Of a DNA stretch of 64,000 bases, positions 84-49,139 are shown in pieces. The notes beneath the pieces are model-generated. The model worked only from the letters and a program-made list of their open reading frames with translations, was not told where the DNA came from and made no database searches. Both the position numbers and the translations under genes were made by a program. This DNA comes from Squalus acanthias (taxonomy: Eukaryota). Numbering within the stretch: the stretch's first letter is position 1; every line of letters begins with the position of its first letter. The DNA is taken from assembly GCA_030390025.1 (NCBI GenBank), contig CM059432.1:80726001-80790000 (forward strand), written 5' to 3'.

Positions 84-864
84 TAAAGATGAGTACTAAA
101 TCTAGTCTGATCTAAACTGATTCTTTGAGCATATTCTCATTTACTCTATTTGGATACAGGTTTAGAATCATGGAATGGTTACAGCACAGAAGGAGGCCAT
201 TTGGCCCGTCGAGCCTGTGCCGGTATTCTTCAAGAGCACTTCAGCCAGTCCCACTCCCCCGCCCTTTCCCCGTAGCCCTGCAAATTTTTTTCCTTCAGGT
301 ACTTATCCAATTCCCTTTTGAAAGCTGTGATTGAGTTTGCCTCCACCACCCTTTAAGGCAGTGCATTCCAGATCATAACCACTCGCTGAGTAAAAAAGTT
401 TTTCTTCGCCTTTGGTTCTTTTGCCAATCACCTTGAATCTATGTCCTCTAGTTCTCGACCCTTCTGCCAATGGGAGCAATTTCTCTAACTACTCTGTCCA
501 GACCCCTCATGATTTTGAATACCTCTATCAAATCTCCTCTCAACCTTCTCTGCTTTAAGGAGAACAACCCCAGCTTCTCTAGTCTATCCACGTAACTGAA
601 GTCCCTCATCCCTGGAATCATTCTCGTAAATTTTTTCTGCACCCTCTCGAAGGTCTTCAAATCCTTCCGAAAGTGCGGTGCCCAGAATTGGACACAATAT
701 TCCAGTTGAGGTCAGACCAGTATTTTATAAAGGTTCATCATAACTTCCTTGCTTTTGTACTCTATGCCTCTATTTATGAAGCGGAGATGCCGGTGTTGGA
801 CTGGGGTGGACAAAATTGAGAGGTCGCACAACACCAGGTTATAGTCCAACAGTTTTATTTGAAA

Positions 865-906
865 TCACAAGCTTTCGGAGCTATCGATTGCTCCTTCCTC
901 AGGTGA
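865..906 (-). ncRNA. Mirror copy of the minimal hammerhead ribozyme
   Basis: Reverse complement of 1800-1841. Confidence 0.78.
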
Positions 907-1799
907 AGTAAATTAGATACAGAATCGCCAAAGCATATATAGATAGAGAACAAAGCATGTGTACCTTACAATTGCAGACCACTAAATTAAATCATCCTGA
1001 CTATCTGCCGAGGTGTGATAAAGTTAATCAAGTCAGCCAGGAAGGTACCACATCAAAGACATAGCAAGATACAACTGAGACAATGAGGTGTAGTCGCAGG
1101 GGTTCTAACGTGTCAAAAGCTGCCGTCTGTATGTAAAACGAAAAGCTTTAAAATTTTTACTTTTTTACTGGGAAAATTTTTACTTTTTTACTGGGAATCA
1201 CATCTGTGAACAAGCCAACGACGACTCGAGTCCGGATCACGTCATGTATCGTGACATAAACCCAAGATCCCGGTTGAGACCGTCTTCATGAGTGCGGAAC
1301 TTGGCTATCAGTTTCTGCTCGATGATTTTGCGTTGTCGTGTGTTTCTAAGGCTGCCTTAGAAACACACGACAACGCAAAATCATCGAGCAGAAACTGATA
1401 GCCAAGTTCCGCACTCATGAAGACGGTCTCAACCGGGATCTTGGGTTTATGTCACGATACATGACGTGATCCGGACTCGAGTCGTCGTTGGCTTGTTCAC
1501 AGATGTGATTCCCAGTAAAAAAGTAAAAATTTTCCCAGTAAAAAAGTAAAAATTTTAAAGCTTTTCGTTTTACATACAGACGGCAGCTTTTGACACGTTA
1601 GAACCCCTGCGACTACACCTCATTGTCTCAGTTGTATCTTGCTATGTCTTTGATGTGGTACCTTCCTGGCTGACTTGATTAACTTTATCACACCTCGGCA
1701 GATAGTCAGGATGATTTAATTTAGTGGTCTGCAATTGTAAGGTACACATGCTTTGTTCTCTATCTATATATGCTTTGGCGATTCTGTATCTAATTTACT

Positions 1800-1841
1800 T
1801 CACCTGAGGAAGGAGCAATCGATAGCTCCGAAAGCTTGTGA
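1800..1841 (+). ncRNA. Minimal type I hammerhead ribozyme in the PLE pLTR
   Basis: tcac-CTGAGGA-a-GGAGC(aatcgata)GCTCC-GAAA-gctt-gtga: stem I tcac/gtga, 5-bp stem II, palindromic AAGCTT in place of stem III. Confidence 0.8.
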
Positions 1842-4800
1842 TTTCAAATAAAACTGTTGGACTATAACCTGGTGTTGTGCGACCTCTCAATTCTATTTAT
1901 GAAGCCCAGGATCCCGTATGCTTTTTTAACCGCTTTCTCAACCTGCCCTGTCACCTTCAGCGATTTGTGCACATGTACCCCCAGGTCTCTCTGTTCATGC
2001 AGCCCCTTTAGGATTGTACTCTTTAGTTTATATTGCCTCTCCTCGTTCTTCCTACCAAAATGTATCACTTCGCACTTTTCTGTGTTAAATTTCATCTGCC
2101 ACGTGTCCGCCCATTTCACCAGCCTGTCTATGTCTTCTTGAAGTCTATCACTATCCTCCTCACTGTTCACTATACTTCCAAGTTTTGTGTCACCTGCAAA
2201 TTTTGAAATTGTGCCCTGTACTCCCAAGTCCAAGTCATTAATATATACCAAGAAAAGCAGTGGTCCTAGTACCGACCCCTGGGGAACACCACTGTATACC
2301 TTTCTCCAGTCTGAAAAACAACCGTTCACCGCTACTCTCTGTTTCCTGTCACTTAGCCAATTTCGTATCCATGCTGCCACTGTCCCTTTTATTCCATGGG
2401 CTTCAACTTTGCTGGCAAGCTTATTTGTGCCACTTTATCAAACGCCTTTTGGAAGTCCAAATACACCACGTCAACCGCATTGCCCTCATCAACTCTCTCT
2501 GTTAACTGATCAAAAAACTTGATCAAGTTAGTTAAATACGATTTGCCTTTAACAAATTTAGCAGTTTGTTACAGAAATTGGCTGCATATATACACAAAGC
2601 AACAGCTTGTTTTCCATGCCAAATGTGCACACCAAGGGATTTAATTTGCTCTTAGTGTGTTAAATGAGTTAATTCTGTTTTATTTTCTAACACAATTAAG
2701 GGAGCAATCAAAAAAATTAGAATAATGGTACTGAATTACCTGTTAATTCCATTAATGGGCAAATGATTGCTTTAAATAATGCACAGTACTCAATCCACCT
2801 GTGAAGTACATAAAATTAACCACTGATAGAGTTAAGTGTAGAAAGACCCACATCACAGAGAGACCATGCAAATCACTGTAGATGGTATAAGGAAATGAAG
2901 AAATGCTGTCTATAGTTCAGAAGAATGACCCACAATAAAGCAGATGGGTGTATGAGATAATTGTGTGGAATGCTAACAACGTTTGGAAGAATGTGCAGAA
3001 GTTGCCCAGTTTAAGGAAAAGCAACAAGGTAAGCATTTAGAATCAGTCAATTATCTCATATTGTTGTATACGGGCATAACTGCCAGTTACTTTACATCGC
3101 TATATATGAATATGGGTCCCAATTATCCTACATTTTTAGAAATGCCTCTACAAGGAGGCTGCAGAGGTAACAGGCGACAGACACGTTTGGCTGTATAATT
3201 TCACAGAAGAGTATCGCTAACCTAAATTTAACAAGCACCTTGCTATGCAATACAAAAGAGAGCTGATGATGCTATTACAATAGCTTGAAAAGGCACATGC
3301 CTTTAAGAGGTTGCAAAAGATTTTCCCCCAACTTGTTTATATATAGATGTAACCGACTATATGAAAGTACTTAGTATGGTTTTCCATTTTCAACTAGCAA
3401 GATATTACAAATTTCATTCTGTGAGCCCTGCCAATTTATGTATACGTTGTGCAGCCTCTGCTTTTCTCTGCAAAGTTACATCTCAAGTAATGTAAATTAT
3501 TCTTTTCTTGGCAAAAGATGACGCCTTCAGTGGGCAATGCCATGTTGAGACTGGTGGTGACAGTCAGTGAATAAAATCCCTTACCCAATTTGAGCGGCCC
3601 ATTATGGATATTGTAGCCTGGGAATGTGTACACAGCATGGGGGATGCTGAACATTGTGGAAACAGCAATGCTGCTGGTTGGTGCAATGATAATTGCACAC
3701 ATTCACTATAGCAACGATTTTCACTGTCATCATATTCAAAGCAGTATTTGTGTTCCTTTACGAAACACAGTGTTTACTGTCATTGCCACAAAAATATGCA
3801 AAACAATGCCTTTTTGCTCAACTTGTGCCATCTTCTTTTTGCAGAATGGCTACAAGCCCGAAAGGAGGAAGCTGTTACAAGTGGAAATGTCACACTCCCC
3901 TCAGCACTCTGTGGCATTCACATTACTTTCAGCTTGGCACCAGCCCAGACATACACTTTTGAAGGTATTACTGTGTTTGACAAGGCAACACAGGCTGAAT
4001 CAAATAAAGAAGGAGGAAGGTGGCTGGTGAAGAAGGACTGGGTGTTGCTGTGTGGAGGTACAGCAGGACCTTGGGCACTTCGAACTTGCTTTGTGATTCT
4101 AGTCTCATGAAACCACAAATTAAATTTAGGATACTTTACAAGCATGAACTGGTGAGCAATTCACTTGTATCAATGCAGAAGACAATGCATCTGGTCTAGC
4201 TACACTTGTGGATTCTATCACCTGTCATGAAACGAGAGTTCTCTGCTCTGCAGCCTGTCATCGAGCAGCCTGCAGCCTCAGTGGCATCTCTGGTGAGACC
4301 TCTGGCACACGGTTGGCAGGCACACTTGGAACATCTCTTAGGAATGCTCCATTGATGATAGCGAGATATTGAGGTCTAAAGACCAAGATGCAATGAACAC
4401 CACTTTTGCTAGGAAATACATTTCAAAACACTCATGATGGAGGGATTCACAAACTTTGCAGCAATACTATGGTGGTCTATACGCACAAATCAGTGACTGC
4501 AGGTAGGACTTGGCCTCTAGAAGTACCATGCATGCCAAAGCACAGGAACAGGGGAGTACTCCTTGGGTCACCACCAGTCCCTTGCTAGCAACTGTTGCTG
4601 GGCAAGTAATGGGAGAAGTACAGCAAAGCTCCCAACTACTAGAAATGGACAAGTTATACCTGGCATGCAGGCAGGACTGTGTAGGCAGCCAGTGAAATTG
4701 TGCATCATGAGTATTCTTTGGGGAATGAGCACTGATTTGTATAATTTTTTTTGCCAGTGATTGTATACCATCTGAATATTGAGTAAACACTAACCTTGCA

Positions 4801-5199
4801 TCTTGATAAAATGCAAGGCATTATCTGCAGCATGATGGATGACAACTTGATTGCAATCAATGGTGCCTTGTACGAGGGGAATGCCACATAAATGGAAAAA
4901 TTGGGTCTACCTTTCCAGCTGTTACTGCTCTGCCTGCCGTATCTGTCACTTTACACTAGCTTCACATATTCAATTTAGTGCATTGTGTGATCCTGTAATT
5001 CCTAAGTAAATTTGCCAATATCCTATTAATTCCAGTTGAACAAACAGTTCACAAGCAAAAAAAACCTCTTAACATTGGATCAATACATTAATATATTTTA
5101 CAACTGTTTACTGCCAGGAGCAATTGAGCTGCATATACAAAAGGTAGCACTCGCTATATAAACACAACAAAATTACTTCTGTAACAACAATAACATTCC

Positions 5200-5870
5200 A
5201 TAGGTGCAGGAAAATGTTGCAAAGTGCTTTGTAATAAGGTGGCACCAAGCATGGGGAAAGGAGGAGATGGATGGGGAACCAAAGGCATTGATGAAGAGGA
5301 GGAATTTTGAAGTGGATTCGAAAGCACGGAGAGAGAGAGGGTAAGGTGGAGTGAAGTTGGAAGTGAATAAGAGAGGGCAGGAGCTTAGTGGATGAATAAG
5401 TGGCTACCACTGGTGAAACATAGGGGCAAGGAGCAAGGAAAAATCCGGTATTAGAGGTAAGGACAGTGCACACGGGCATAAAACAGGACGAGATTATTCA
5501 AGTGACAGGGGGTGACACCATGGAAAGATTTGACATGCTGGTGCATGGGGAGCTTGGAAATGATAGGGGCGATGGGAGTGTAGCATTTAGTATAGATGGG
5601 GATGTGAATTGCGATGTTTGGATGATGGAAGGTTGATGCGGGGAAGCCAGCTAGGGCAGGATTGGAGAAGTTAAGCCTTGAAGTGACGAAGGTATGGACT
5701 AGGGTTTCAACGCATAAGGGCAGAAGTGGCAATGTTGCAGAGGTGAAAGAAATCACTTTTAATAAGAGAGCATACATGGGGAAGAGTCTGATCTTGGCAT
5801 TGAACAGGGTGACAAGCTTCTGCACTCCATTTGAGGTGACAACCAGGGAGATTGATCTGTGGTCTGCACA
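5200..5870 (-). mobile_element. Degraded L2-clade LINE 3' fragment
   Basis: ORF 5451-5825(-): ETLVHTFVTSRLNFSNPALAGFP, resembling the L2 motif LVHAFITSRLDYCNSLLAGLP. Confidence 0.65.
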
Positions 5871-6094
5871 GAGTGGTCTTAAACGGAATGCATCTAAACA
5901 GAGTGTTAAAGTTGGGAATTTGGAGAGAGTGGGAATTCGGAGCAGAGGGGGAAGGAGGTGCTGGTTTTTGCCTCCAAAACTTGTAGTGCTTTGTTTTACA
6001 AGTAAATATTTAATTTCATCTACCTATAACATAAACTAGATCTAGTAATTCATTAAAAACTAAACTATAAGCTAAGTTAATTAAACACTTACGA

Positions 6095-7811
6095 AGCTCG
6101 GCGGGTCCGTGGCGGACAACGTCGGTGGCGGATCTCGACCCCGCTGCTGCCTCCATCCCGGCCTCTGAAATGACTTTCCGATGATTGGGCCAGCGCATTT
6201 CCCAGCCAATTGAAGGAAGTGGGTCTGATGACGTTATTTATGACGCGTCATCAGCCGGTTTCCTTAAAGGGGCCATGCCCAAATTTTAGTTTGACATTTG
6301 TGCTGTCAGTGTTCTACAGCATTGAGGTGCTGCAAACACGGACAAGCACTGCGCAGAGGTGCACGGCTGCACCCAGGCTTTCCCATGACTCCCTCCATAT
6401 GCTTATGGAGGGAGTCACAGCACAAAGGGAGGTCCTCTTCCCTTCCCATGAGTGGAAGAGACCTCCCCAGGACACCAATGTAGTCTGGTTTCACATTGCA
6501 CAAGAGGGCACAAGCAGGGATGTCGTCAGGAGGACCTGGCTGCCGTGGCGCAAACCTTTCAATGATCTCAGTAGATCACAAAATGTTACTGCAAAGCCAC
6601 ACTCAACCTCATCCTGCTGTGCCACTCATCACATCCCCATCACTCTGCCTTCCCTACCCTACTCCTGTACATCCTTACTCACACCAACTTACCTTGCACC
6701 TCCATCCATCCCTCTCTATCTACATTATCACTTCCCCATCTCACTAGCCACCCCTCACACTCACTCTCATCCTACTGCAAGCATACCAACTAACAACACA
6801 CAAGGGTAGGCACTTGGATGTTTTAGCCAATGTTCATGTAAAGTTTCTGTTAATGTGCTGTCAAACATTGAAACCTTTATTTTCAACACTTTGCGTTCTT
6901 GGAAAGATTTGTGTGCACCTTTAGAAGTGAATTAGTGAGTTGCAGTGAATGCTGATGAGTGTGAAAGGAATAGCTTGGGCATTGTAGGGATACTTTATGT
7001 TGTTGGTGTGGGATAGTGCCAACCTGGCACATCATGTGGCATCCAGGGTGTACACCGTCAAGTGAATTAAATGTGGCCATGGTGAAGCCATCCCTGGCCT
7101 CCCAGGCAGCAATGTGGTTGGGTTCTGATGCCCTGTGTCCTGTGCAGCATCAGGTGATTGCAGAGAAGGTTGGTGGTGTTGTTCGTGCTGCTGGTGTGCC
7201 TGGTGATGCTGGTGTTGGGGCTGATCGTGGTGAGATTCTGAAGACCAAGGTGAGAAGGTTTCAAGGGCACCCATGCTGATGGAATAGATGACAGGTGAAG
7301 TAGAGATGACAGAAGCGATCTGTCAATGGTGGGAGAGGTAATGAGGTCAGACTGGGTGGAGACTTGTGTAAAGACTTGCAGCGTGGTGAATCTGTAGTGG
7401 AAATGCAGTTTAGAGAAGCTAGTGGTTAAGGGAACATTTCTCAATCAGCTGGGAGCTATGACTTGACATTTGAAGCTGTCAACTCATCAGCTGATTCAAT
7501 GGCCACTGACCTCCCGCCTCAGCTTCAAGCCTCAGTTTCCCATCTAGGCACAGCGGGAAACTGGTGGGCGACCTGTCAAATCCAAAAAGCTGGGAAAAAA
7601 ACAGTTAAATGGCTGTAAACAAGCCACTAATTATTTTAATTGCCTCCCCTGCCGCTGCCTATCGGGTCTGCTCAGCGCTGGCAGAGCCGACATTGGGACA
7701 GTCCAGTGTGCGCGTTTTGACAGCGGGTTCCCGACCCGCTGTCAATCATTTAAAATTTAACAGCTGACCCACCACCCATCCCGTCCACTGAGCGCCGGCA
7801 AAATTCCGGCC
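6095..7811 (+). mobile_element. PIF/Harbinger remnant with the first exon of a Myb/SANT-like gene
   Basis: Peptide APRLSHDSLHMLMEGVTAQREVLFP...WFHIAQE...RRTWLPWRKPFNDL at ~6365-6580; right terminus AAAATTCCGGCC at 7811. Confidence 0.75.
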
Positions 7812-7855
7812 ATAAACTTTAATTAATTAAATAAATAAAACAAGGTTATATAGAG

Positions 7856-8775
7856 ATGGCAGTGCAGGTGGTGTGCCACAACTGCAGCATTGGGACTTTG
7901 TGGAGAGCGTCGCGATCCCGGACGATCATGTTTTCAGTAAGTGTCTGCATCTCGGGGAACTTCAGCTCATAGTTGTTGAGCTGGATTCTGAGGTGCAGAC
8001 ATTGCGGGGCATCAGGGAGGGGGAGACTTACCTGAACACTTTGATCCAGGAGGCGGTCACACCCCTTAGGTTAGGTAGTGGTACAGGTCTGGTTAGTGGT
8101 CAGGGACAGGAGGGTGTGACTGTGACTCAGGCAGGTAAGGGGACCCCAGGTTCAGTGCTGGAGGAAACTTGCCCTTTGCCCTTATCCAGCAGGTATGAGG
8201 TTCTTGCTGCCTGTGTGGATGAGCAAACTGACCATGGCACCGTGGTACAGGCGGCCATTCAAGCGGGGAGAGTGAAAAGGAATGTTGCAGTAGTAGGGGA
8301 TAGTATAGTCAGGGGGATATATGCTATTCTCTGCACCCGCGACCGGGAGTTCCGAAGGCTGTCTTGCCTGCTCGGTGCCAGGGTTAAGGATATCTCCTTG
8401 TAGCTGGAGAAGAATTTGAAGTAGGAGGGGAAGGATCCAGCTGTCGTGGTCCATGTTGGAACCAACAACATAGGTAGAACTAGGAATGAAGTTCTGCTGA
8501 GAGAGTTTGAGGAGCTAGGGTTCAAATTAAAACGCAGAACCTCATAGGTTCGGATTATTACCTGAGCCACGCGCAAATTGGCATAGGGACAAGCAGATCA
8601 GAGAGTTAAAAGTGTGGCTCAAACAGTGGTGAGGAAGGGGTTTCGATTCATGGGGCACTGACACCAGTACTGGGGAAAGAGGGAGCTGTTCCATGGGGAC
8701 GGGCTCCACTGATACTGGGCTGGGACCAGTGTCCTGCCGAATTGAATAAATAGAGCTGTAGATCGGGCTTTAAAC
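7856..8775 (+). pseudogene. CR1 ORF1 (Cys-rich N-terminus, coiled coil, SGNH esterase domain), disrupted
   Basis: Motifs VVGDSIVRG, LGARVKDI, VVVHVGTNNIG and DGLH; in-frame stops near 8401 and 8422. Confidence 0.8.
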
Positions 8776-11127
8776 TAAAAAGCGGGGTGGTGTGGTGGGG
8801 GGGTGGGGGGAGGTGTCAGGTGAGGGGAAATTTAGAAAACTAAAGAAAATACTCACTGCAATGGAGCAGTGTAGCGATTTGGGTAAAGATAAGCAGAGTG
8901 TGACAGGAAGGGACAGAGAGTTTAACGGTAAAAGTGCATCAGCCAATAAGGGAATAATAGTAAAAAGTTCAAATTAAAGGCTCTTTATTTGAATGCATGA
9001 AGCAGTCGTAACAATATAGACAAATTAGTGGCACAAATAGAGATCAATGGGTTTGATCTAATAGCCATTACAGAGACGTGGTTGCAAGGTGACCAAGGTT
9101 GGAAACTAAATATTTCAGGGTGCCTTACGTTTTGGAAAGACAGGCAGAATGGAAAAGGAGGGTGCAGCTCTGATAATAAAGCATGACATAAGGACAGTCA
9201 TGAGAAAGGATCTAGGCTTGGAAGATCAGGAAGTAGAATCAGTATGGGTGAAGATAAGAAATAACATGGGGCAGAAAACATTGGTGGGAGTAATTTATTG
9301 ACCCCCCTAACAGTAGCTATACCATTGGACAGAGTATTAACAAATAATAGGAGCTTGTAACAAAGGTAATGCAATAATCGAGTGAGATATTAATCTTCAT
9401 ATAGACTGGCCAAATCAAATTGGCAAAGGTAGTCTGGAGGACGAGTTCATGGAATGCATTCGAGACAGTTTCCTAGAACAGTACATCATGGAACCAACCA
9501 GGGAACAGGCTATTTTAGATCTTGTATTGTGCAATGAGACAGGGTTAATTAGTAATCTCACAGTAAAGGATCCTCTGGGGAAGAGTGATCATAATATGAT
9601 AGAATTTCACTTTAAGTTTGAGAGTGACATACTTCAGTCCGAAACAAGAGTCTTAAACTTAAATAAAGCCAATTACATAGGTATGAGGGGCAAGTTGGCG
9701 AAGGTAGATTGGGAAATTAGATTAAAAGGTATGACGGAAGATAAGCAGTGGCAAACATTTAAAGAAATATTGCAAAATTCTCAACGAATATATATTCCAT
9801 TGAGAAATAAAAACTCCACAGGAAAAGTGATGCATCCGTGGCTAACTAAAGAAGTTAAGGATAGTATTAGATTAAAAGAAGAGGCTTATAATGTTGCGAA
9901 GAATCGTAGTAAGCCTGAGGATTGGGAGAGGGTTAGAAACCAGCAAAGGTGACCAAAAAATTGATAAAAAGGGAGCAAACAGAATATTAAGAGAGTGAAC
10001 GAGTAAGAAACACAAAAACAGATTGTAAGAGCTTGTACAAGTATGTAAGAAGGAAAAGAGTAGCAAAAGTAAGCATTGGTCCCTTAGAGGCTGAGACAGG
10101 AGAAATTATAATGTGAATAAGGAAATGGCAGAGACTTTAAACAAATATTTTGTATCTGTCTTCATAGTAGAAGACACAAAAGCCATATCAAAAATAGTGG
10201 GGAATGAAGGGGCTAATAAGAGTGAGGAACTTAAAGTAATTAATATCAGTAGAGAAAAAGTACTTGAGAAACTAATGGGCCTAAAGGCTGACAAAACCAC
10301 TGGACCTGATGGCCTATATCCTCGGGTTCTAAAAGAGGTAGCTGCAGAGATAGTGGATGCATTTTTGTGATCTTCCAAAATACCCTGGATTCTAGAACAG
10401 TCCCAGCAGATTGGAAGGTAGCAAATGTAACCCCGCTATTCAAAAAAGGAGGGAAAGAGAAAACGGAACTACAGGCCAATTAGCCTGACATCTGTCATCG
10501 GGAAAATGCTGGAATCCATTATTAAGGAAGTGGTAACAGGGTACTTAGAAAATCATAATATGATTAGGCAGAGTCAGCATGGTTTTATGAAAGAGAAATT
10601 GTGTTTAACACATTTATTATAGTTTTTTGAGGATATAACTAGCAGGGTAGATGAAGGAGAAACCAGTGGATGTAGTATAATTGGATTTCCAAAAGGCATT
10701 CGATAAGGTGCCACATAAAAGTTTGCTACACAAGGTAAGGGCTCATGGGTTGGGGTAATATATTAGCATGGATAGAGGATTGGTTAATGGACAGAAAAGA
10801 GAGTAGGGATAAACGGGTCATTTTCCGGTTGGCAGGCTGTAACTAGTGGGGTGCCACAAGGATCAGTGCTTGGGCCTCCGTTATTTATAATCTATATTAA
10901 TGTCTTAGATGAAGGGACCGAGTGCAATGTATCCAAGATCGGGCAGGAAAGTGGAGTTGAGGTCGAACATCAGCCATGATCTTATTGAATGGCGGAGCAG
11001 GCTCGAGGGGCCATATGGCCTACTTCTGTTCCTAGTTCTTATGTTCTAAAGGCCAAATTCTCACAGGAGCTGGCAGCAGCTATAGAAGATGACCTCTTAG
11101 TTAATGCATAGATATGATGCCAGATAA

Positions 11128-15310: not shown

Positions 15311-15422
15311 TCCTCCCCTCCAGGAGGAGGCTGCGCTGCTGCCCACCACCAGTTTAAGTGACATGTTTCGCCCTGTGTGAGGTCCTTGCTGCATGAACGC
15401 ATAGATATAGATTAAATTCATT

Positions 15423-16167
15423 GGGCTGGATTTTGATACTGGGGCGGGTTGGGGTCGTGTCATCCGCATTTCGTGTTATCCACCCGACTGCAATTGGATG
15501 TGGGAGATTGATGCAATTTTGACCTAATTTTGCAATTGAGTACCAGCATGTGGGAACCCATGAACCAATTAGTGGTTTGAGTCTGAAAGTCGCCTCTGAT
15601 GATGTCATCATTGTTGCTGCATTGCAGGTCAGAGACTGCCTGGCCTTTGCTGTGAGAGGACATGGACGCGGACGCAAAAGGAGCAGCAGCTCTAAGGAGA
15701 GAGAGATAGAGAGAGAGAATTTTTTTTTGCATCCAGGTCCTCTCCCAGCAAAGGCCAGGCAGTCTCTGAAGACCTTCAATGCAGCAGCATCAGAGGCGAC
15801 TTTCAGACCTAATACTACTACTTTCATCACATCTCTGTTGTAATAGTGGACCTGCAGCTGATAGTCAGCTATCCACTTGTGCTCCCGCCAGGTTTCACTG
15901 GCGTGTTTCACATCAGGCGTGCTTCACGTGGGAAAAGGGTTAAACTAGCTAAAAAGTTTCAAAATGGCATTACAGAGCCAATTTAGGGCTTGTTAAGGGC
16001 TTTAATGGCCTCTCCCGCCTCTTGGAGGCGGGACGGAGACGGGAACACCGCACACGATTTCTTCAAAATTGCATGGAGACGGGATCAGGTCCGCCCGCCA
16101 CTTTTTGCAATTTTAACCCCCCACACGCCTCCAAACCCGCCTCCACGGGTCTATGAAAATCCAGCCC
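15423..16167. mobile_element. PIF/Harbinger MITE, copy 1
   Basis: TIRs GGGCTGGATTTT...AAAATCCAGCCC; flanks ATT/ATA; highly similar to 17770-18473. Confidence 0.85.
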
Positions 16168-16878
16168 ATAGTATATATAGGATAGCAGCCAGAAGACCTC
16201 AAAGCTGTTGTAAACAAAGAAGAATTGCAATAGAAATTGGAGGGGGATAATCGTGACTACATTTTTCTGCCTGTTAGTGCTGCGATTTCAGAACAAAATT
16301 TAAGTATGTACCAGTGACCTATATCTCCAGTTTAGACCTATAATATAATATGAGGGATGATTTTAACCCCTTTTGCCGCTGAGATGAGGGAGTGTGGGGA
16401 TTTTAATAGAGGCAGCGTCCTCCCCTCTGGGTTGACACCGTGCTCATGTCTATCTCCAGTTTAACTGACATGTTTTGCCCTGTGTGAGGCCCTTGGTGCA
16501 TGTAGGCAAGGGCCTCATAAATATGGAAAAGTTGGGATCCTGTGATGTAAATAGGACCCTGACGTGATTTTAATCTGCAGTCACATGACCCATGCCTGGT
16601 GCCGGGCTTGCCAGATAAAGCTGGTGGCAGGCAGGAGCAGGCCCTGAGAAGGGCTGAGAAGGTAAGGTTTAAAACATTTTTACGATCTCCATGTGGACCT
16701 GAAGGAGCAGGTTTGCTCCTATCAGCCCCACAAGGAAACTTTGGACCTCCCTTGCCCTGGGCTTCTCCCACCCACCGGCCAGGCACTGATTCCTGCTGGG
16801 ATTTGTTGGGAGACTCAACTGAGAGATGGAAATGAGGCCCAGGAGTTAAAATGGCCTGGGCATCACTCCAGCGTGACC

Positions 16879-19800
16879 ATAGAACATAAGAACATAAGAC
16901 ATAGGAGCAGGAGTAGGTCATTTGGCTCCTCGAGCCTGCTCCTCCATTCAATAAGATCATGGCTGATTTGATCTTGGCCTCAACTCCACTTCCCTGCCCG
17001 CTCCCCATAACCCTTGACTCCCTTATCGTTCAAAAATCTGTCTATCTCCACCTTAAACATATTCAATGACCCAGACTCCATAGCTCTCTGGGGAAGAGAA
17101 TTCCATAGATTCACAACCCTCTGAGAGAAGATATTCCTCCTCATTTCCGATTTAAAAGGGTGCCCCCTTATTCTGAAATTATGCCCCCTATTTCTAGATT
17201 CCCCCACGAGGGGAAACATCCTCTCTGCATCTACCCTGTCAAGCCCCTTCAGAATCTTATATGTTTCAATAAGATCTCCGCTCATTCTGCTGAACTCCAA
17301 TGAGTATAGGCCCAACCCGCTCAACCTTTCTTCATAAGATAACCCCTTCATCTCTGGAATCAACCTTGTGAACCTTCTCTGAACTGCCTCCAATGCAAGT
17401 ATATCCTTCCTTAAATAAGGAGACCAAAGCTGTACGCAGTACTCCAGGTGTGGTCTCACCAACGCCCTGTACAGTTGTAACAGGACTTCCCTACTTGTAT
17501 ACTCCATTCCCTTTGCAATAAAGGCCAACACTCCATTTGCCTTCCTAATTAATTGCTGTACCTGCATGCTAACTTTTTGTGATTCATGTACAAGGACCCC
17601 CAGATCCCTCTGTACCTCAGCATTTTGTAATCTCTCCCCATTTAAATAATAATTTGCTTTTTTATTTTTCCTACCAAAGTGGATAACCTCGCATTTTCCC
17701 ACATTAAACTCCATCTGCCAGTTTTTTGCCCACTCACTTAGCCTATCTATATCCCTTTGGAGATTCTTTGGGCTGGATTTTGATACTGGGGCGGGTTGGG
17801 GTCGTGTCATCCGCATTTCGTGTTATCCACCCGCCTGCAATTGGATGTGGGAGATTGATGCAATTTTCACTTAATTGGGCAATTGAGTTCCAGCATGTGG
17901 GAACCCATGAACCAATTAGTAGTTTCAGTCTGAAAGTCGCCTCTGATGATGTCATCATTGTTGGTGCATTGCAGGTCAGAGACTGCCTGGCCTTTGCTGT
18001 GAGAGGACCTGGATGCAAAATGAGCAGAGAGAGAGAGAGAGCGAGAGAATGAATTTTTTTTTTCATCCAGTTCCTCCAAAGGCCCCGGCAGTCTGAAGAC
18101 ATTCAATGCAGCAGCATCAGAGGCGACTTTCAGACCTAATACTACTACTACCTTCATCACATCTCCGTTGTAATAGTGGACCTGCAGCTGATAGTCAGCT
18201 ATCCACTTGTGCTCCCGCCAGGTTTCACTGGCATGTTTCACATCAGGCGTGCTTCACGTCAGAAAAGGGTTAAACTAGCTAAAACGTTTCAAAATGGCAT
18301 TACAGAGCCAATTTAGGGCTTGTTAAGGGCTTTAATGGACGGAGTCGGGAACACCGCACACGATTTTATCAAAATTACGTGGAGGCGGGATGGGGTCGGG
18401 ACCCCCGAATCTGCAACGTTAACCCCCCACACGCCTCCAAACCCGACTCCACGGGTCATTGAAAATCCAGCCCTTTGTGTCCTCCACACAATTTGCTTTC
18501 CCACCTATCTTTGTATCATCAGCAAATTTGGCTACATTACACTCAGTCCCTTCATCCAAGTCATTAATGTAGATTGTAAATAGTTGAGGCCCCAGCACTG
18601 ATCCCTGCAGCACCCGACTAGTTACAGTTTGCCAACCTGAAAATGACCCATTTATCCTGACTCTCTGTTTTATGTTAGTTAGCCAATCCTCTATCCATTA
18701 CTCCCAACCCCGTGAGCTCTTATCTTGTGTAGTAACCTTTTATGTGGCACCTTATCGAATGCCTTCTGGAAATCCAAATACACGACATGTACTGGTTCCC
18801 CTTTATCTCCCCTGCTCGTTACATCCTCAAAGAACTCCAGCAAATTTGTCAAACATGATTTCCCTTTCATAAAACCATGCTGACTCTGCTTCACTATATT
18901 ATGATTTTTCTAAATGTCCTGCTATCACTTCCTTAATGATGGACTCCAACTTTTTCCCAATGACAGATGTTAGGCTAACTGGTCGATAGTTGCCTGCTTT
19001 CTGTCTCTCTCCTTTCTTAAATAGGGGCGTTACATTTGCAGTTTTCCAGTCCGCTGGGACCTCTCCAGAATCCAGGGAATTTTGGTAGATTACAACCAAT
19101 GCATCCACTATCTCTGCAGCCACCTCTTTTAAGACTCTAAGATGCAGGCCATCGAGTCCAGGGGACCTGTCCACCTTTAGTCCCATTAGTTTGCCTAGTA
19201 CTTTCTCTCTAGTGATAGTGATTGTTTTAAGTTTCCCCCCCCCCCCACCCCAATAGCCTGTTGATTATCCATTATTGGGATGCTTTTAGTGTCTTCTACC
19301 ATGAAGACCGATACAAAATATTTGTTCAAGGTCTCCGCCATTTCCCTGTTTCCCATGATTAATTCCCCAGACTCATCCTCTAGGGGACCAACGTTTACTT
19401 TAGCTACTCTCTTCCTTTTTATATACCTGTAGAAGCTCTTACTGTCTGTTTTTATATTTCTTGCTAGCTTACTCTCATCAGCTATCTTCTCTCTCTTTTT
19501 ATCATTTTTTTAGTTGTCCTTTGCTGCTTTTTAAAAAATTTCCCAATCATCTGGCCTTTCACCATTCTTTGCAACATTGTATGCTTTTGTTTTCAATTTG
19601 ATACCATCCTTTACTTCCTTAGTTAGCCACGGATGGTTCATCCTTCTCTTAGAGTCTTTCTTTCTCACTGGAATATATTGCTGAGAGTTATGAAATATCT
19701 CCTTAAACGTTTGCCACTGCTTTTCTATTGTCTTACCCTGTAATATATTTTCCCAGCCACTTTAACCAAGTCTGCCTTCATAGTTTTGTAATTACCTTTG
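16879..19800 (-). mobile_element. CR1 LINE (~2.2 kb of ORF2 plus 3' tail), split by a MITE
   Basis: ORFs 16980-17816, 18691-18894 and 18899-19186 carry RT motifs (NYRPVSLTS, YLDFQKAFDKVPH, KFADDTK); tail (CATAAGAA)n. Confidence 0.92.
17770..18473. mobile_element. PIF/Harbinger MITE, copy 2, nested in CR1
   Basis: Same TIRs as copy 1; exact TTT/TTT TSD; the CR1 sequence rejoins across it. Confidence 0.9.
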
Positions 19801-22184: not shown

Positions 22185-22294
22185 GTATGGGATACTTTCC
22201 ATATATCACAGTTTTGCTATTGCTGCATTTTCTCTGATCCTCCTTATTGCTTAGAATTCATAAAACGGAGTACTGAAATGTCTCTCCCATATAG

Positions 22295-27055: not shown

Positions 27056-27868
27056 CATGGAAGGAGCTGTATCAATGCAGGTTCTTTCCCCATTCGTGAA
27101 CAGAGGATTGTTGATCTTATCATGAAAAATAAAATCAATGATTGCTGAAGTTACTGCCAGATCATAGCTTCCAGTAGGTTTCAGTGGCCTATGGTAATGG
27201 TTACAAATAAGTTATTGAAAGTTAGTTACACCAACAGGATAGAACAGAATAGCAGTAATACTGTTAATTTAATTTTCCTTGATAATTTTTAGCATTACAC
27301 TGATATAAAGTACAGAATGAAGAATAATCTCATTCTGCGAGGCTGTATAATGCGAAGCTGATGCTGATAATTTAGGGACATATTTTATTCTGTTCACCAA
27401 TTTGGTGAAAAATGAGGATTATAAAGCAGTATTTCTGCTTTATGCTCATGCCCACGTTTTTGCTAAAATTGGAAAACAGAATAAGAAAGCTCCCATAGAC
27501 ATGTCAGAGGCGGAATCAGTTTACAAAGCCTTCGCCAGCCATGGAGTTTCTATAAGAAGGTTAAATGCTCACTAAGTGTGCCACTCTAAAATCACAGCAC
27601 CATCATTGTACCACAGACCAACACTGTCCAAGGGAACTACAACCACTCAGAGAAGTTAGATTTGCTCTGAGAAATTCAAGGACTCTAATTCTGTTTCAGA
27701 TTTCTCAAGTCTTGCCCTTTTTGTGGAGAACTTGTGGCGAAGTGTACAATCAACGTTTAATAATTCAAATACAATAGCAAAATACTGCAGATGCTGGAAT
27801 CTGAAATAAAAACAGAAAATGTTGGAAATACTTAGCAGGTCAGGCAGCATCTGTGGAGAGAGAAATAG

Positions 27869-27905
27869 AGTTAATGTTTCAGGTCTGTGACCTTTCGTCA
27901 GAACT
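27869..27905 (-). ncRNA. Mirror hammerhead ribozyme (PLE family B)
   Basis: Reverse complement of 28807-28843. Confidence 0.72.
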
Positions 27906-28806
27906 GGAAAAAGTTAGAGATATAACAGATTTTAACCAGGTGCAGAGGCAGGTAAAGGGGGAGGGGAAGAAAGAATAAAAGGGACGGTCTGTGATAGGGT
28001 GGAAGGCAGGAGTGGTTAAATGCTGCAAATGGGAATGGCAGAATCATCAACAGCTGCCGTCTGAAAAAATAGGGCCAGAGGTTATGGTCTGAAATTGTTG
28101 AACTCGATGTTGAGTCTAGAAGGCTGTAAAGTGCCTAATCAAAAGATGAGGTGCTATTCCTTGAGCTTCATTGGAGCAGTGTAAGAGGCCGAGGTCAGAG
28201 TGGGAGTGGAGCGGAGAATTAAAGTGATAGGCAACCGGAAGCTCGGGGTTACCCTTACGGACTAAACAGAGGTGTTCCGCAAAGCGGTCACCCAATTTGC
28301 GTTTGGTCTCCCCAATGTAGAGGAGACCACATCGTATACTGTATTCGCTGCTCACGATGCGGTCTCCTCTACATTGGGGAGATCAAACGCAGATTGGGTG
28401 ACCGCTCCGTGGAACACCTCCGTTCAGTCTGTAAGGGTAACCCCGAGCTTCCGGTTGCCTATCACTTTAATTCTCCCCTCCAATCCCACTCTGACCTCTC
28501 TGTCCTCGGCCTCTTACACTATTCCAATGAAGCTCAACGTAAGCTCGAGGAACAGCACCTCACCTTTCGATTAGGCACTTTACAGCCTTCTGGACTCAAC
28601 ATTGAGTTCAACAATTTCAGACCATAACCTTTGCCCCTATTTTTTTCAGACGGCAGCTGCTGACGATTCTGTCATTCCCATTTGCAGCATTTAACCACTC
28701 CTGCCTTCCACCCTATTACAGACCGTCCCTTTTGTTCTTTCCTCCCCTCCCCCTCTTTCCCTGCCTCTGCACCTGGCTAAAATCTGTTACATCTCTAACT
28801 TGCTCC

Positions 28807-28843
28807 AGTTCTGACGAAAGGTCACAGACCTGAAACATTAACT
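28807..28843 (+). ncRNA. Minimal type I hammerhead ribozyme (PLE family B)
   Basis: agtt-CTGACGA-a-AGGTC(aca)GACCT-GAAA-catt-aact; stem I agtt/aact. Confidence 0.75.
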
Positions 28844-28876
28844 CTGTTTCTCTCTCCACAGATACTGCCTGACCTG

Positions 28877-29600
28877 TGCATGAACAGAGAGACCTGGGGG
28901 TATATGTGCACAAATCGTTGAAGGTGGCAGGACAGGTTGAGAAAGCACATAAAAAAGCTTACGGGATCCTGGGCTTCATGAATAGAGGTATAGAGTACAA
29001 AAGCGTGGAAATTATGATGAACCTGTATAAAACACTGGTTCGGCCTCAACTGGAGTATTGTGTCCAATTCTGGGCACTGCACTTTAGGAAGGATGTGAAG
29101 GCCTTAGAGAGGGTGCAGAAAAGATTTACAAGAATGGTTCCAGGGATGAGGGACTTCAGTTACGCGGATAGACTGGAGAAGCTGGGGTTGTTCTCTTTGG
29201 AGCAGAGAAGATTTAGAGGAGATTTGATAGAGGTGTTCAAAATCATGAGGGGTCTGGACAGAATAGATAGAGAGAAACTGTTCCCATTGGCAGAAGGGTC
29301 GAGAACCAGAGGACACAGATTTAAGGTGATTGGCAGAAGAACCAAAGGCGACATGAGGAATAACTTTTTTACTCAGCGAGTGGTTATGATCTGGAATGCA
29401 ATGCCTGAAAGGATAGTAGAGGCAGACTCAATCACAGCTTTCAAAAGGGAATTGGATAAGTACCTGAAGGAAAAAAGTTTTCAAGGCTACGGGGAAAGGG
29501 CAGGGGAGTGGGACTAGCTGAAGTGCTCTTGCAGAGAGCCGGCACGGGCTCGACGGGTCGAATGGCCTCCTTCTGTGCTGTAACCATTCTATGATTCTAT
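28877..29600 (+). mobile_element. Young 5'-truncated CR1 insertion
   Basis: Open ORF2 C-terminus to its stop at 29517; tail ATTCTATGATTCTAT; TSD TGACCTG at 28870-28876 and 29600-29606. Confidence 0.93.
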
Positions 29601-30321
29601 GACCTGCTGAGTATTTCCAGCATTTTCTGTTTTAATAATTCAAAGTTGTTTTTTGCTGTACAAAATGGAATTAAGCAGTGCAAATAAGAGTAAGCTGGGA
29701 ATTTGGTGCTAATGATTAATGTTCAAATAATTTGAATGATACAATTTGGTATTAAAAGGATTGGATATCGATAAATTGAACTTTGCATATATGTTTGAGA
29801 TTGCCACAAATTCTAGAAGCAGAGGAAAACAGAACAAGGAAGGTGCACAGACAGTATAGATTAACTACTTCAAGCAATGGGAAGTGAACTTGTTGCACAG
29901 TTGTGCAAAGGCAGTGGATGCAGCTAATGTGAAGAAAATTAAGGGAGAATTTATTCGATATTTAGTCCATTGGCAATTAAGAGGTATTCGTTTTTGGGAC
30001 AGGACTGATAAGCTGCAGAATCCTATACTTTCCTATGTCCTTGCAACACAACTAGTCCACATTCCCAACCTCACAAACCAATTTACAATGAAAATGCAAG
30101 AAGCAAATAGTTGAGTGACCTGATTTAAAAAAAACTCAGCTTATTTATCTGTAGAATTGCAGTTCAGTTTGTTTTCTAATTAAGTTGGTTCTCTCCTTGA
30201 TTATACAATTGTAATCTTCCACCAACTTCTAATTTAACCATCTGAAAGATAGAAAACTTTCTAGTTCTGTTTTACAACCATCTCAGGTTGGTGCCAAACT
30301 ACAATGCCTTTTAATTTGAAA

Positions 30322-30447
30322 AAAAATGAGAAGTCGCACAACACCAGGTTATAGTCCAACAGATTTATCTGTTGGACTATAACCTGGTGTTGTGCGACTT
30401 CTCATTTTTGTCCACCCCAGTCCAACGCCGGCATCTCCACATCATGA
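30322..30447. mobile_element. PLE family A mini fold-back insertion
   Basis: 43-bp arms 30322-30364 and 30367-30409; tail 30410-30447 homologous (reverse complement) to 783-813; TSD CTTTTAATTTGAAA at 30308-30321 and 30448-30461. Confidence 0.88.
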
Positions 30448-32097
30448 CTTTTAATTTGAAAGCAGGCTTGAAGCTATCAGCGCGCCAGTTATCCATTTCT
30501 CTAAAGCAGACCTCAGTATAATTCCTAACCACATTACAGACTGTCTTTCATAACTATCCTATTCTCACCTGAATACTCATTGTTTATTTTGGACAATGAG
30601 CTGCAAAAATTATATTGAAAACAAATTCAGTAAATGATATGACAAGAAGGCAGATCAAGTGAAAAGAGGTCTCAGAGCTCACAGCTAGGTCTAGCTTGTC
30701 ATTCACACTCTGTCTTGGTTATGATAGAATTGTTCTTCTGTAGACATCAGTCTGAAATATCAGTCAGTCCCTGGAGAGCAGCTGTAATAATTATTCTGCA
30801 GTTTCAGCAACACAGATTCCAAACCCTGGAAAATTGTTTGTATCAGAATGCCTTAGGTAGTGCTATCATATCAGTAAAACACATCCCTAATCCTTGAGTG
30901 CTGGCAGTCTGGCACTGCATTAGGTATCCTTACATTAAATATAAGAAGCAGTGCTTAGTGCTGTTGTATCTGTTAACAGTATCTCAGATCTATTGGAGAG
31001 TAAGAACTCGAGGTTGCTTCAGGCTGGTCTATATACCCAGTAGAGTTACATATTGCTTTCTGTGAAATAAAAATTCAGTCCCCTCAATTGTATCATTTAT
31101 AAAACAAATCTATAGTATTGTTATTTAATATAATGCATAATATGGCCAGAAATACATACAAAATTACATAAAATACTGCTGTAACTTTGGCGGAACCTCA
31201 AAATGACCATTTTCAGCCATTTGCGCCATTTTTCAGGGGAATCCGCAGCTGTTTACATTGTTTCTCTAGGGGTCTGCTTAGTCTCCTACTGAAGTTATGC
31301 AGGGAGACTGGGAGACCTTCTACCCCGCCACCCCCACCGTACCCTGCATATGAGTCTCCACTTGGATCATTGGCCCGGATTTTGCGGTCAGCAGCGAACG
31401 AACGGCGCTAGCTGCTCATTACACTTACCCACAGACTTTCTGTGGGCTTTTGCACTGCAACTTGCGGTGATTGGAAATGCGAAACAGTACAGTGCCCTCT
31501 ACAGGGGATCTGGGACCTTTATAAATAGGGCAAGCAAATGTGTATCTCCTTAACCAATCAGATTGAAGAATCCTTAGTGTGACATACAGTGCGAAAACCA
31601 GGGAGTGTGAGTTAGAATATTTAATTCAATGCCAAATCATGTACAGAAAGCAAAATAAAGAGAGGGAAAGAAAGATGAGATTAAGAGAGAGAGATAAAAG
31701 AGACAGAAATAATTTTTTTTAAATAAATTTTTTAACTTTTTAAATCTCCAAGAATAATTAAAATCTGAAGGAATGCCGTTAATGATAGCTTTTTCTGGTG
31801 TGTTTAGTGGGTATCTAATGGGCAAGTACCGCAAGTTCACACCCTTCCATGTGTTTCAATGCTGAGTCTCTGGACAAGATACTGGTACAGCGAAGCTTCT
31901 GGAGGAGCAGATCATCTCAGACAGCAGCTTCCCGATTTCCGTGTTTAACTACGCGGATGCGGATGCTGGAAGTTACTGTCCAGTTTACCACTTAATAGTG
32001 GTGAGCGCTGATAGTTTCACCGTTATTTCTACTGCAAAATCTGGGCCAGTATCTTGAAATCTGATGTAATTATTTTCTGCTTCACCCCATCTCCAAG

Positions 32098-47617: not shown

Positions 47618-47890
47618 ACAAGATGCACTGCAGCAACTTGCCAAGGCTTCTTCGGCAGCACCTCCCAAACCCGCGACCTCTTCCACCTAGAAGGACAAGG
47701 GCAGCAGGCTCATGGGAACACCACCACCTCCAAGTTCCCCTCCAAGTCACACACCATCCTGACTTAGAAGTATATCGCCGATCCTTCATCGTCGCTGGGT
47801 CAAAATCCTGGAACTCCCTACCTAACAGCACTGTAGGAGTGCCTTCACCACATGGACTGCAGCGTTCAAGAAGTTGGCTCACCACCACAA
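47618..47890 (+). mobile_element. Zenon-like LINE fragment, inverted relative to 46630-46900
   Basis: Near-identical peptide KMHCSN.PRLLRQHLPNPRPLPPRRTRAAG. Confidence 0.8.
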
Positions 47891-48410
47891 AGAACAAAAG
47901 GGAAGGCCTGTGATAGGATGGAAGGCAGGAGAGATTAAGAGACAAAAGGGATGATGGTGCAAGGCAAAAGGAGATGGTAATGGGACAAGTTAAGAAACAA
48001 AAGATGACTCTAGATGAAGTGTAAATGGCAATGGCAGAATCCAGGGCCCCAAACACTCCTTCCAGGTGAAACAGCGATTTACTTGTACTTCTTGCATTTA
48101 GTATATTGTATTCGCTGCTCACGATGCGGTCTCCTCTACATTGAGGAGACCAAACTTAGATTGGGTGACCGCTTTGCAGAACACCTCCGTTCAGTCCGTA
48201 AGGGTGACCCCGAGCTTCCGGTCGTCTGTCACTTTAATTCTCTGCTCCACTCCCACTCTGACCTGTCCATCCTCGGCCTCTTACACTGTTCCAATGAAGC
48301 TCAACGTAAGCTCAAGGAACAGCACCTCATCTTTCGATTAGGCACTTTACAGCCTTCTGGACTCAACATCGAGTTGAACAATTTCAGACCATAACCTCTG
48401 CCCCTATCAT
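47890..48410 (+). mobile_element. PLE family B-related fragment: GIY-YIG endonuclease region preceded by an inverted UTR piece
   Basis: LVYCIRCSRCGLLYIEETKLRLGDRFAEHLRSV...GLNIE; 47890-48035 is antisense to sequence like 33520-33610. Confidence 0.8.
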
Positions 48411-49139
48411 TATTTTTTTTTCTCTCTCTCACATGGCAGCTGTCGATCCTGCAAAGTAACCCCATGTGATGTGAAACACAAAAGAACTAGTAGCTGCATG
48501 TAAAGACATTGCAATAAAGCAAATAAATCTTAGACTACCTGTGATAAGTATTTGGCACCTGTTGCCATCCTCTCACACAGGTTCACTCATTATGTGCAGC
48601 ACCTCCTCTTCGTGTGCACTCAGGGTTTTCAGCAATGCTGTTCCTACGCCGGTTGTATTTCTTTGGTGCTGGTTGTAGGTCATCTTTTTCTTTGGAGGAA
48701 AAGAAGACAATGTTAATTGGCAAATGGGTGGTACAGACACTTTCCCTCATATAAATGCATGCATTCTATGATGATGAGTTTGAGGTATATTCTCCATTTA
48801 AATTAAGTGATCTTGAACACTAGCTATAACCCTTGTGGCAGGCAATCTGAGTTGGCGGAACTGTTTTGAGTAAAGAAAGTTTGAGTTTTTGCAGAGGTTG
48901 ACCTTTGTAGAAGTGAGGTCCCCTGACACCCAGATGCTGAGACAGAAGGAGTATACGAGGTAAAGAGATCAGTGAAGACTGTCTGAGTGGTAGAGAATGT
49001 GTATTGGCAAGAGTGCCCAGACTTACCTTAGCTACCCTCATGAGGTCCTAGATCCACTTCCGGTGCAATGTGGAAGTTCTTGGGGTGGTGGAGGTTGCAC
49101 TGACTGCTTCTGCCACCTGGTCCATATAGTCTGCACAAT

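What the first reader, a model, noticed from the sequence alone, without database searches (positions are those of the whole stretch)
769..1905. 1.08-kb palindrome: apparently perfect 539-bp arms with a 1-nt loop, made by a Penelope-like retroelement
Seen: 814-1352 and 1354-1892 are reverse complements around a single T at 1353, with no mismatch found by eye; both arms include a 23-bp internal tandem duplication. There is a 31-nt tail on one side only and a 14-bp TSD, and the host CR1 rejoins across the insertion. Known: PLEs often integrate with an inverted pLTR plus a short tail. Inference: a very recent insertion made by fold-back or self-primed synthesis. A spacer-less palindrome of this length should extrude cruciforms and, inside PREX2 pre-mRNA, form ~540 bp of perfect dsRNA.
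Basis: partly seen in the sequence, partly recalled or inferred. Interest (0 to 1): 0.72.

Follow-up and report, generated by a model that had tools for sequence, protein, structure and literature searches.

The report
Head-to-head Penelope retroelement palindrome
The 1.1-kb mirror-image sequence is real in this assembly and is a well-preserved insertion of a Penelope-like jumping gene, which is known to land as back-to-back copies; the useful detail is that the turning point sits on a tiny hairpin already present in the parent element.

Summary
Observation confirmed: arms 814-1352 and 1354-1892 match at 539 of 539 bases around T1353, with a 31-nt one-sided tail and a 14-bp target duplication, and the CR1-type host LINE rejoins without a gap. 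The arm is the 3' end of a Penelope-like element: endonuclease C-terminus (76% identical to an 881-aa RT/GIY-YIG protein with a Neptune/Nematis-type linker), UTR and minimal hammerhead motif. Inverted copy plus tail plus duplication is the published layout (PMC3846280, PMC8557442). Two more insertions in the window share it, each with a 14-bp duplication, and the scan reported the kind before, in this genome and others. Added here: two public contigs show the parent already held the 5-bp stem at the turning point (chance 0.4-2%). In the other two copies the loop comes from the tail-less strand, which suggests both target ends primed cDNA. 'Very recent' is not shown: the bound is 0.55% arm divergence. 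Cruciform, dsRNA and independent read support for the junctions remain untested. Verdict: new member of a known kind.

The parts
163..782 (-). Host CR1-type LINE, 3' part (left flank)
   Evidence: 90% identical over 723 nt to window copy 29599-28877 once the insertion is removed; the CR1 label is recalled from the ORF end and the microsatellite tail, not from a call
769..782 (+). Target-site duplication, left copy (14 bp, AT-rich)
783..813 (-). One-sided 31-nt Penelope 'tail'
   Evidence: outside the palindrome; matches the tail of the copy at 30410-30438
814..1352 (-). Left arm: 3' end of the element, sense on the - strand, continuous with the tail
865..906 (-). Minimal hammerhead motif, left-arm copy
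   Evidence: motif scan hit at 902 on the - strand; exact mirror of 1800-1841
1150..1195 (.). 23-bp tandem duplication in the left arm (mirror at 1509-1554)
1348..1358 (.). Turning point: AAGGC-T-GCCTT, a 5-bp stem that pre-exists in the parent element
   Evidence: 2 contigs of run X1 fit the sense sequence from 1348 onward and carry upstream ORF sequence as a loose end; that end translates to the same residues as homolog P0003
1350..1466 (+). Last 39 codons of the GIY-YIG endonuclease domain of the Penelope-like ORF
   Evidence: 27 proteins at E<=0.001; 76% identical to the C-terminus of 881-aa P0006
1354..1892 (+). Right arm: 3' end of the element, tail-less, sense on the + strand
1800..1841 (+). 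Minimal type I hammerhead motif: helix I UCAC/GUGA, CUGAGGA core, unpaired A, 5-bp helix II, GAAA, palindromic AAGCUU in place of helix III
   Evidence: features as in PMC4209133; no Rfam match; activity not tested
1847..1852 (+). AATAAA in the element's 3' end
   Evidence: read from the sequence; function not tested
1892..1905 (+). Target-site duplication, right copy; T1892 is shared with the arm
1892..2540 (-). Host CR1-type LINE, RT part (right flank)
   Evidence: Pfam RVT_1 E 1e-14 for 1865-2434 on the - strand; continuity
30308..30461 (+). Second insertion of the same family: 43-bp perfect arms, 2-nt loop, 38-nt tail, 14-bp duplication
27756..29644 (.). Older inverted insertion of a second Penelope-like family: about 520-bp arms 89% identical, 18-nt loop, about 36-nt tail, 14-bp duplication; right arm interrupted by a CR1-type fragment at 28877-29599
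47889..48440 (.). Decayed inverted insertion of the second family with an unpaired spacer of about 390 nt
   Evidence: outer ends lost, no duplication looked for

Best explanation
One retrotransposition event of an endonuclease-bearing Penelope-like element (Neptune/Nematis type). Shown: the product's anatomy, its family, and that the turn lies on a native 5-bp stem. Inferred, step by step: (1) the GIY-YIG endonuclease nicks both strands of an AT-rich site 14 nt apart; (2) both 3' ends prime reverse transcription, one from the distal start (tail included) and one from the proximal start 31 nt inside (no tail); (3) one cDNA stops after about 570 nt at the native micro-palindrome, snaps back and copies itself, giving a sense arm; (4) the cDNA from the other end anneals to that sense arm and is extended through the hairpin, and gap filling gives the duplication. 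The result is a head-to-head palindrome whose arms are identical at birth, with a tail on one side. It has no function of its own; it is a 5'-truncated dead copy.
For: Anatomy. Family. Both strands of the product begin with target DNA followed by antisense element sequence, which is what priming from both ends gives. A Poseidon-clade PLE protein cleaves and extends both strands in vitro, is predicted dimeric, and starts at two sites that bracket the tail (PMC11167929, parts 1-2 of 4 read). Native stem at the turn: loose end before 1348 in 2 contigs of run X1; read by hand, 8 of the first 10 positions around the centre pair in the parent. Perfect stems of 5 bp or more occur at 2 of 539 arm positions with loop <=1 and at 11 of 539 with loop <=20. 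3 of 4 inverted junctions in the window have spacers of 1, 2 and 18 nt, although arms are 539, 43 and about 520 bp, which favours snap-back over two independent stops. In the 30.3-kb and 27.8-kb copies the loop bases continue the antisense of the tail-less strand, with 2-nt junction overlaps; that strand cannot template the tail, so a second cDNA is needed. All 3 duplications found are 14 bp and AT-rich.
Against: The parent junction rests on 2 contigs of 1 of 4 runs in a truncated table (2,721 loose ends not shown), and the parent's centre base was not displayed. The native stem is weak on its own (-0.7 kcal/mol). 1 of 4 inverted junctions has a spacer of about 390 nt, and the first search only accepted gaps up to 150 nt, so short loops were favoured. 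For the 30.3-kb copy the parent was approximated by the main copy, which differs at one base next to the loop. Sequence alone cannot separate snap-back from annealing of two co-terminal cDNAs. PMC11167929 concerns another clade and does not address inverted products in the parts read. n is 4 junctions.
Confidence: 0.55

Rival explanations
1. Twin priming without a hairpin: two cDNAs, one from each target end, copy the same 5'-truncated RNA (or two RNAs on a dimer), end at nearly the same place, anneal to each other through the self-complementary 11-mer and are filled in.
For: Gives the same final sequence. Explains why either strand can supply the loop and the 390-nt spacer. An 11-mer with one central mismatch is a better intermolecular anchor (10 pairs) than a hairpin of -0.7 kcal/mol. 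Both-strand extension and two start sites in PMC11167929.
Against: Needs both cDNAs to stop within 0-18 nt of each other in 3 of 4 cases, which requires a shared RNA end that is not shown.
Confidence: 0.22
2. Single-strand fold-back or self-priming on an antisense template, resolved by the endonuclease at the tail boundary (first reader; PMC3846280 Discussion; PMC8557442 passage on the tail).
For: Fits the main copy. The native stem lies at the turn. 5 of 6 aligned homologs have Gly where the window has Cys, so the loop T is most simply a C-to-T change at a CpG on the tailed antisense strand (inference). The tail-less end reads AATT, like the ATT cleavage motif of PMC11167929.
Against: In the other two short-loop copies the loop comes from the tail-less strand, which has no template for the tail.
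Confidence: 0.12
3. The insertion is older and its arms are kept identical by gene conversion or hairpin repair between the arms.
For: The only base that departs from the expected parent without a partner is the loop base (inference), while 21 CpG sites per arm show no asymmetry. The arms share differences from the majority of laid contigs, at 822 and 1285 for example.
Against: The 18-nt-loop palindrome at 27.8 kb has 33 substitutions between its arms, so arms do diverge here. The duplications are 14 of 14 identical. Shared differences are equally explained by the source copy.
Confidence: 0.07
4. Sequencing, assembly or polishing artefact (fold-back chimera, or arms made identical in consensus calling).
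For: 100% identity; no independent contig over the centre or junctions was displayed (table cut).
Against: A fold-back chimera would mirror the flank as well. Here the mirror stops at 814/1892, a tail lies on one side only, a 14-bp duplication brackets the insert and the host LINE rejoins in register. Two more copies show the same layout, one of them with diverged arms.
Confidence: 0.04

Closest known systems
Canonical EN+ Penelope-like insertion with inverted pLTR, tail and target duplication (Pen2a_Av, Pen2_Av, Pen3a of Adineta vaga; PMC3846280, passages and Discussion read)
   Same: Head-to-head inverted 3' ends, a 31-bp tail on one side only, a target duplication, and a palindrome at the inverted junction read by the authors as self-priming.
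   Different: Duplication 14 bp against 8-10 bp; junction palindrome 1,079 bp against 18-38 bp; no internal ORF copy; vertebrate host.
Neptune/Nematis clades of PLEs (PMC8557442, passages read)
   Same: [quoted passage not shown] The paper describes an adjacent inverted 5'-truncated copy and a 30-40-bp tail as typical of PLEs.
   Different: The window holds only the last 39 residues; clade placement is borrowed from a homolog, and no tree was built to separate Neptune from Nematis.
PAc, Poseidon element of Anolis carolinensis (PMC11167929, parts 1-2 of 4 read)
   Same: Two reverse-transcription starts bracketing the tail, AT-rich targets, both strands cut and extended, hammerhead near the tail.
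   Different: Poseidon clade lacks the linker zinc finger. The parts read give no model for inverted products. At the left junction here 5 of the last 7 target bases match the tail's continuation, whereas PAc starts without homology.
Minimal hammerheads of metazoan PLEs (PMC4209133, parts 1-2 of 4 read)
   Same: Core, unpaired base between positions 9 and 10.1, G10.1-C11.1 pair, 4-bp helix I, palindromic 15.2-16.2. The paper notes pairs of motifs 100-700 bp apart on opposite strands in Schistosoma.
   Different: Helix II is 5 bp, shorter than the 7-8 bp given for Schistosoma; sharks are not mentioned in the parts read.
Human palindromic AT-rich repeats, PATRRs (PMC7999016, passages read)
   Same: Near-perfect palindromes several hundred bp long, with little or no spacer.
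   Different: PATRRs are >90% AT; these arms are 41% GC and retroelement-made. Fragility is shown for PATRRs and untested here.

Membership tests
EN+ Penelope-like element | ORF with C-terminal GIY-YIG endonuclease | tested here: met
   The 39-aa end matches the C-termini of 27 proteins; P0003 hits PF01541 at E 0.0017, below the curated cut-off (19 of 22.6 bits); the window peptide has no GIY-YIG Pfam hit
EN+ Penelope-like element | Telomerase-like RT upstream in the same ORF | tested here: inconclusive
   Absent from this truncated copy; present in homolog P0006, 76% identical over the shared end
EN+ Penelope-like element | Inverted 5'-truncated copy, 30-40-nt one-sided tail, target duplication | tested here: met
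   tails of 31, 38 and about 36 nt in three window copies
EN+ Penelope-like element | Hammerhead motif in the terminal repeat | tested here: met
   Motif at 1800-1841; the same scan gave 7 hits in the window, 5 in PLE ends and 2 (7490, 42006) not assigned; Rfam negative
Minimal hammerhead ribozyme | Self-cleavage, as a dimer or with protein help | not testable with these tools
   No assay; the paper itself reports low in vitro activity (PMC4209133)
Neptune/Nematis clades | CX2-5CxxC zinc-finger-like linker between RT and EN | tested here: inconclusive
   Present in P0006, P0014 and P0013, not in the window; no phylogeny built
Penelope/Poseidon clade | No zinc-finger linker | tested here: not met
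   Nearest homologs carry the linker; tested on homologs only
DNA transposon or MITE with terminal inverted repeats | Outward terminal repeats around an internal region, no RT-family sequence | tested here: not met
   The whole insert is one mirrored retroelement end with an asymmetric tail
PATRR-type fragile palindrome | >90% AT and breakage at the centre | tested here: not met
   41% GC; breakage not testable

The most novel reading that the evidence does not exclude
Junction anatomy fixes the missing step of Penelope transposition: both target ends prime cDNA from the two known start sites, and one cDNA snaps back at a native micro-palindrome. A vertebrate genome rich in these elements would then keep receiving spacer-less palindromes up to a kilobase long, also in introns, and tolerate them for long periods. 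That would make it a natural test bed for palindrome decay and for intronic perfect dsRNA.
Probability: 0.35. Interest if true: 0.5.

Novelty: new member of a known kind. Interest (0 to 1): 0.22.

Why it matters
As a locus it matters little: it is a dead, truncated copy in a published layout, and the scan has met the kind repeatedly. Its value is as a clean mechanistic specimen. How PLEs make their inverted structures is stated as open in PMC8557442 and PMC11167929, and this copy gives two countable tests for a genome-wide survey: whether turning points fall on native micro-palindromes, and which strand supplies the loop. If many long perfect palindromes persist in this genome, that would also bear on how vertebrate cells tolerate cruciform-prone DNA and intronic dsRNA.

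Tried and rejected
No whole genome is held, so no genome-wide count of copies, spacers or the 23-bp duplication was possible. Sequencing runs (query 1906-9000): 24 runs listed, all kept as contigs, no raw or long reads; no RNA holder listed. laid 4 of those 24 runs on 1-1385 only, so the right junction was not examined. Its piece table was cut, so centre and junction support is undecided. An empty allele cannot be told from other LINE copies: the loose ends at 782 are the ordinary LINE continuation. No 23-nt gap appears in the indel table, but short contigs fit one unit without a gap and some differences were not counted, so this is inconclusive. A-to-G counts in the guessed-RNA run X22 (8) equal those in the two DNA runs of organism A (8 and 8) and come from family-wide contigs, so they say nothing on editing. 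Run X6 (another organism) has almost no cover at 894-1175 at 90% likeness; not used as evidence. Summed depths over the arm (0.7-1.7 million against 13-16 in unique flank, X1) show a very abundant family but are no copy number. Rfam: 0 matches in the window at gathering score; only a chance miRNA match at E 0.52 over 1700-1910. Metagenome scans: 0 matches to a 26-nt arm pattern and 1 unrelated 30% GIY-YIG locus, L001. None of the members read from 5 protein clusters carries a name. Other self-complementary stretches: one search gave 9 loci, 3 of them PLE; 5 of the other 6 were inspected and lack a tail and a matching 14-bp duplication. Earlier findings: none near this place, none by sequence, none for one longer word set. 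Paper searches returned no study of shark PLE palindromes or of turning points at native micro-palindromes; the library lacks most subscription papers, and Arkhipova 2006 and Evgen'ev & Arkhipova 2005 were not read. Supplements were not opened; Fig. S2 of PMC11167929 and the figures of PMC3846280 may bear on the tail and junction claims. Rejected: MITE or DNA transposon (asymmetric tail, ORF end); Poseidon membership (homologs have the linker); a functional RNA hairpin (no conservation evidence).
Full report
Observation. The palindrome is exact: 539 of 539 bases pair around T1353, and pairing fails at 813/1893. The 23-bp duplication is in both arms, the 14-mer lies at 769-782 and 1892-1905, and 783-813 is an unpaired 31-nt extension. 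T1892 counts for both arm and duplication. Removing 783-1905 restores the host LINE without a gap against two other window copies. The right flank encodes an RT (Pfam RVT_1); the label CR1 is recalled, not from a call. Exons of PREX2 lie downstream on the + strand; an intronic position is inferred, not shown.

What the arm is. Read on the + strand, the right arm starts with 39 codons that match 27 proteins among 1.84 billion representatives. [quoted passage not shown] By the criteria in PMC8557442 (passages read) the linker marks the Neptune and Nematis clades and is absent from Penelope/Poseidon; the placement is borrowed from homologs and no tree was built. After a UTR comes a minimal hammerhead motif at 1800-1841 with the features listed in PMC4209133 (parts 1-2 of 4 read); Rfam does not detect it and activity is untested. 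The tail continues the sense strand of the left arm. The insert is thus two 5'-truncated 3' ends of a Penelope-like element, head to head, one with the tail and one without.

It is not alone. The window holds 6 PLE-derived insertions of two families, 4 of them inverted. At 30308-30461 the same family left 43-bp perfect arms, a 2-nt loop, a 38-nt tail and a 14-bp duplication. At 27756-29644 a second family left arms of about 520 bp, 89% identical, with an 18-nt loop, a tail of about 36 nt and a 14-bp duplication. At 47889-48440 a decayed copy has an unpaired spacer of about 390 nt; my first search, limited to gaps of 150 nt, missed it. Earlier notes of the scan describe the same kind in this genome and in others; these are unchecked leads, not support.

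The turning point. Public contigs were laid on 1-1385 (4 of 24 listed runs). In run X1, 2 contigs fit the sense sequence from 1348 onward and carry a 22-nt loose end before it, which reads D-L-R-V-S-V-L, the residues found upstream in P0003. So the five bases left of the centre are native to the element: the parent holds AAGGC-n-GCCTT, and by hand 8 of the first 10 positions pair. Such stems occur at 2 of 539 arm positions with a loop of at most 1 nt and at 11 of 539 with loops up to 20 nt. The evidence is thin: one run, a truncated table, and the centre base not displayed. 5 of 6 aligned homologs have Gly at the centre codon, so the T is most simply a C-to-T change at a CpG on the tailed antisense strand (inference). 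In the two other short-loop copies the junction overlap is 2 nt and the loop continues the tail-less antisense strand (for the 30.3-kb copy the main copy stood in as parent).

Mechanism. Each strand of the product starts with target DNA followed by antisense element sequence, as expected if both nicked ends prime reverse transcription. PMC11167929 (parts 1-2 of 4 read) shows for a Poseidon protein that both strands are cut and extended and that two start sites bracket the tail. Spacers of 1, 2 and 18 nt in 3 of 4 junctions suggest that one cDNA snaps back and copies itself. A tail-less strand cannot template the tail, so the second cDNA must supply it. I put two-end priming plus snap-back at 0.55, annealing of two co-terminal cDNAs at 0.22 (same final sequence, and it fits the 390-nt spacer), single-strand fold-back at 0.12, later homogenisation at 0.07 and artefact at 0.04. 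That the insert is a Penelope-like insertion is much firmer, about 0.95. The native hairpin is weak alone (-0.7 kcal/mol), which counts against spontaneous snap-back.

Age and consequences. Zero differences bound arm divergence at 0.55%. With 7e-10 per generation (PMC10587355, passages read; 95% CI 1.4-14.1e-10; another species, and the host is a shark only by earlier notes) this allows about 4 million generations. The copy is young beside the 27.8-kb one (33 substitutions), but 'very recent' is not shown. Long spacer-less palindromes are a recognised risk (PMC7999016, passages read), yet these arms are 41% GC and the older 18-nt-loop copy has persisted. If the intron is transcribed the arms could pair, and this would also hide the hammerhead and the AATAAA; none of this was tested. 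One search displayed no contig across the centre or left junction, so independent support for the locus is open; the internal anatomy argues against a chimera.

Comparison and verdict. PMC3846280 (passages and Discussion read) describes inverted pLTRs, a 31-bp one-sided tail, 8-10-bp duplications and junction palindromes read as self-priming. PMC8557442 calls the adjacent inverted truncated copy and the 30-40-bp tail typical of PLEs. This locus differs in palindrome length and in its 14-bp duplication. Five searches found no paper on turning points at native micro-palindromes, but the library is partial and supplements were not opened. It is a new member of a known kind, with a modest and testable mechanistic lead. 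Interest 0.22.

Noticed in passing
window 769-813: The last 7 bases of the left duplication (ATGAAGC) match 5 of 7 bases of the tail's continuation in the 30.3-kb copy: either target-RNA pairing at priming or an uncertain boundary. One case only.
   Followed up: partly
window 774-817 (table 5): Contigs in runs X1, X5 and X22 join the host LINE at 774-778 to the tail-less element end at 810-817, i.e. other insertions at nearly the same LINE position in the opposite orientation. May be a preferred AT-rich site or chance, given two very abundant repeats; 291 joints were not shown.
   Followed up: no
window 28870-29606: A CR1-type 3' fragment sits inside the older Penelope palindrome with an apparent 7-bp duplication (TGACCTG), the reverse of the nesting at 769-1905.
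   Followed up: partly
window 47889-48440: In the decayed inverted copy the right arm ends within about 8 bases of where pairing with the left arm would begin, as if the complementary part had been deleted.
   Followed up: no
window 769-1905, 27756-29644, 30308-30461: All three measurable target duplications are 14 bp and AT-rich, across two Penelope-like families.
   Followed up: partly
window 34844-34939, 44236-44284, 49173-49286, 6386-6417, 15567-15823: Other imperfect hairpins, not Penelope-derived and without tail; 34844-34939 has 45-bp arms with a 6-nt loop. Possibly internal parts of MITE-like repeats.
   Followed up: partly
window 15416-16172 and 17763-18478: Two copies (about 91-96% alike) of a repeat with internal inverted parts, 2.3 kb apart, around a LINE fragment.
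   Followed up: no
window 58759-59388 (- strand): Open frame that resembles a Harbinger/PIF-type transposase (recalled resemblance, no search run).
   Followed up: no
window 59529-59700 and 33912-34147: Tandem arrays with 15-bp and 32-bp units.
   Followed up: no
window 22043-22183, about 22290-22410, 52647-52835: Late coding exons of PREX2 on the + strand (residues about 1370-1415, from about 1419, and 1477-1539 of the P-Rex2 chain).
   Followed up: yes
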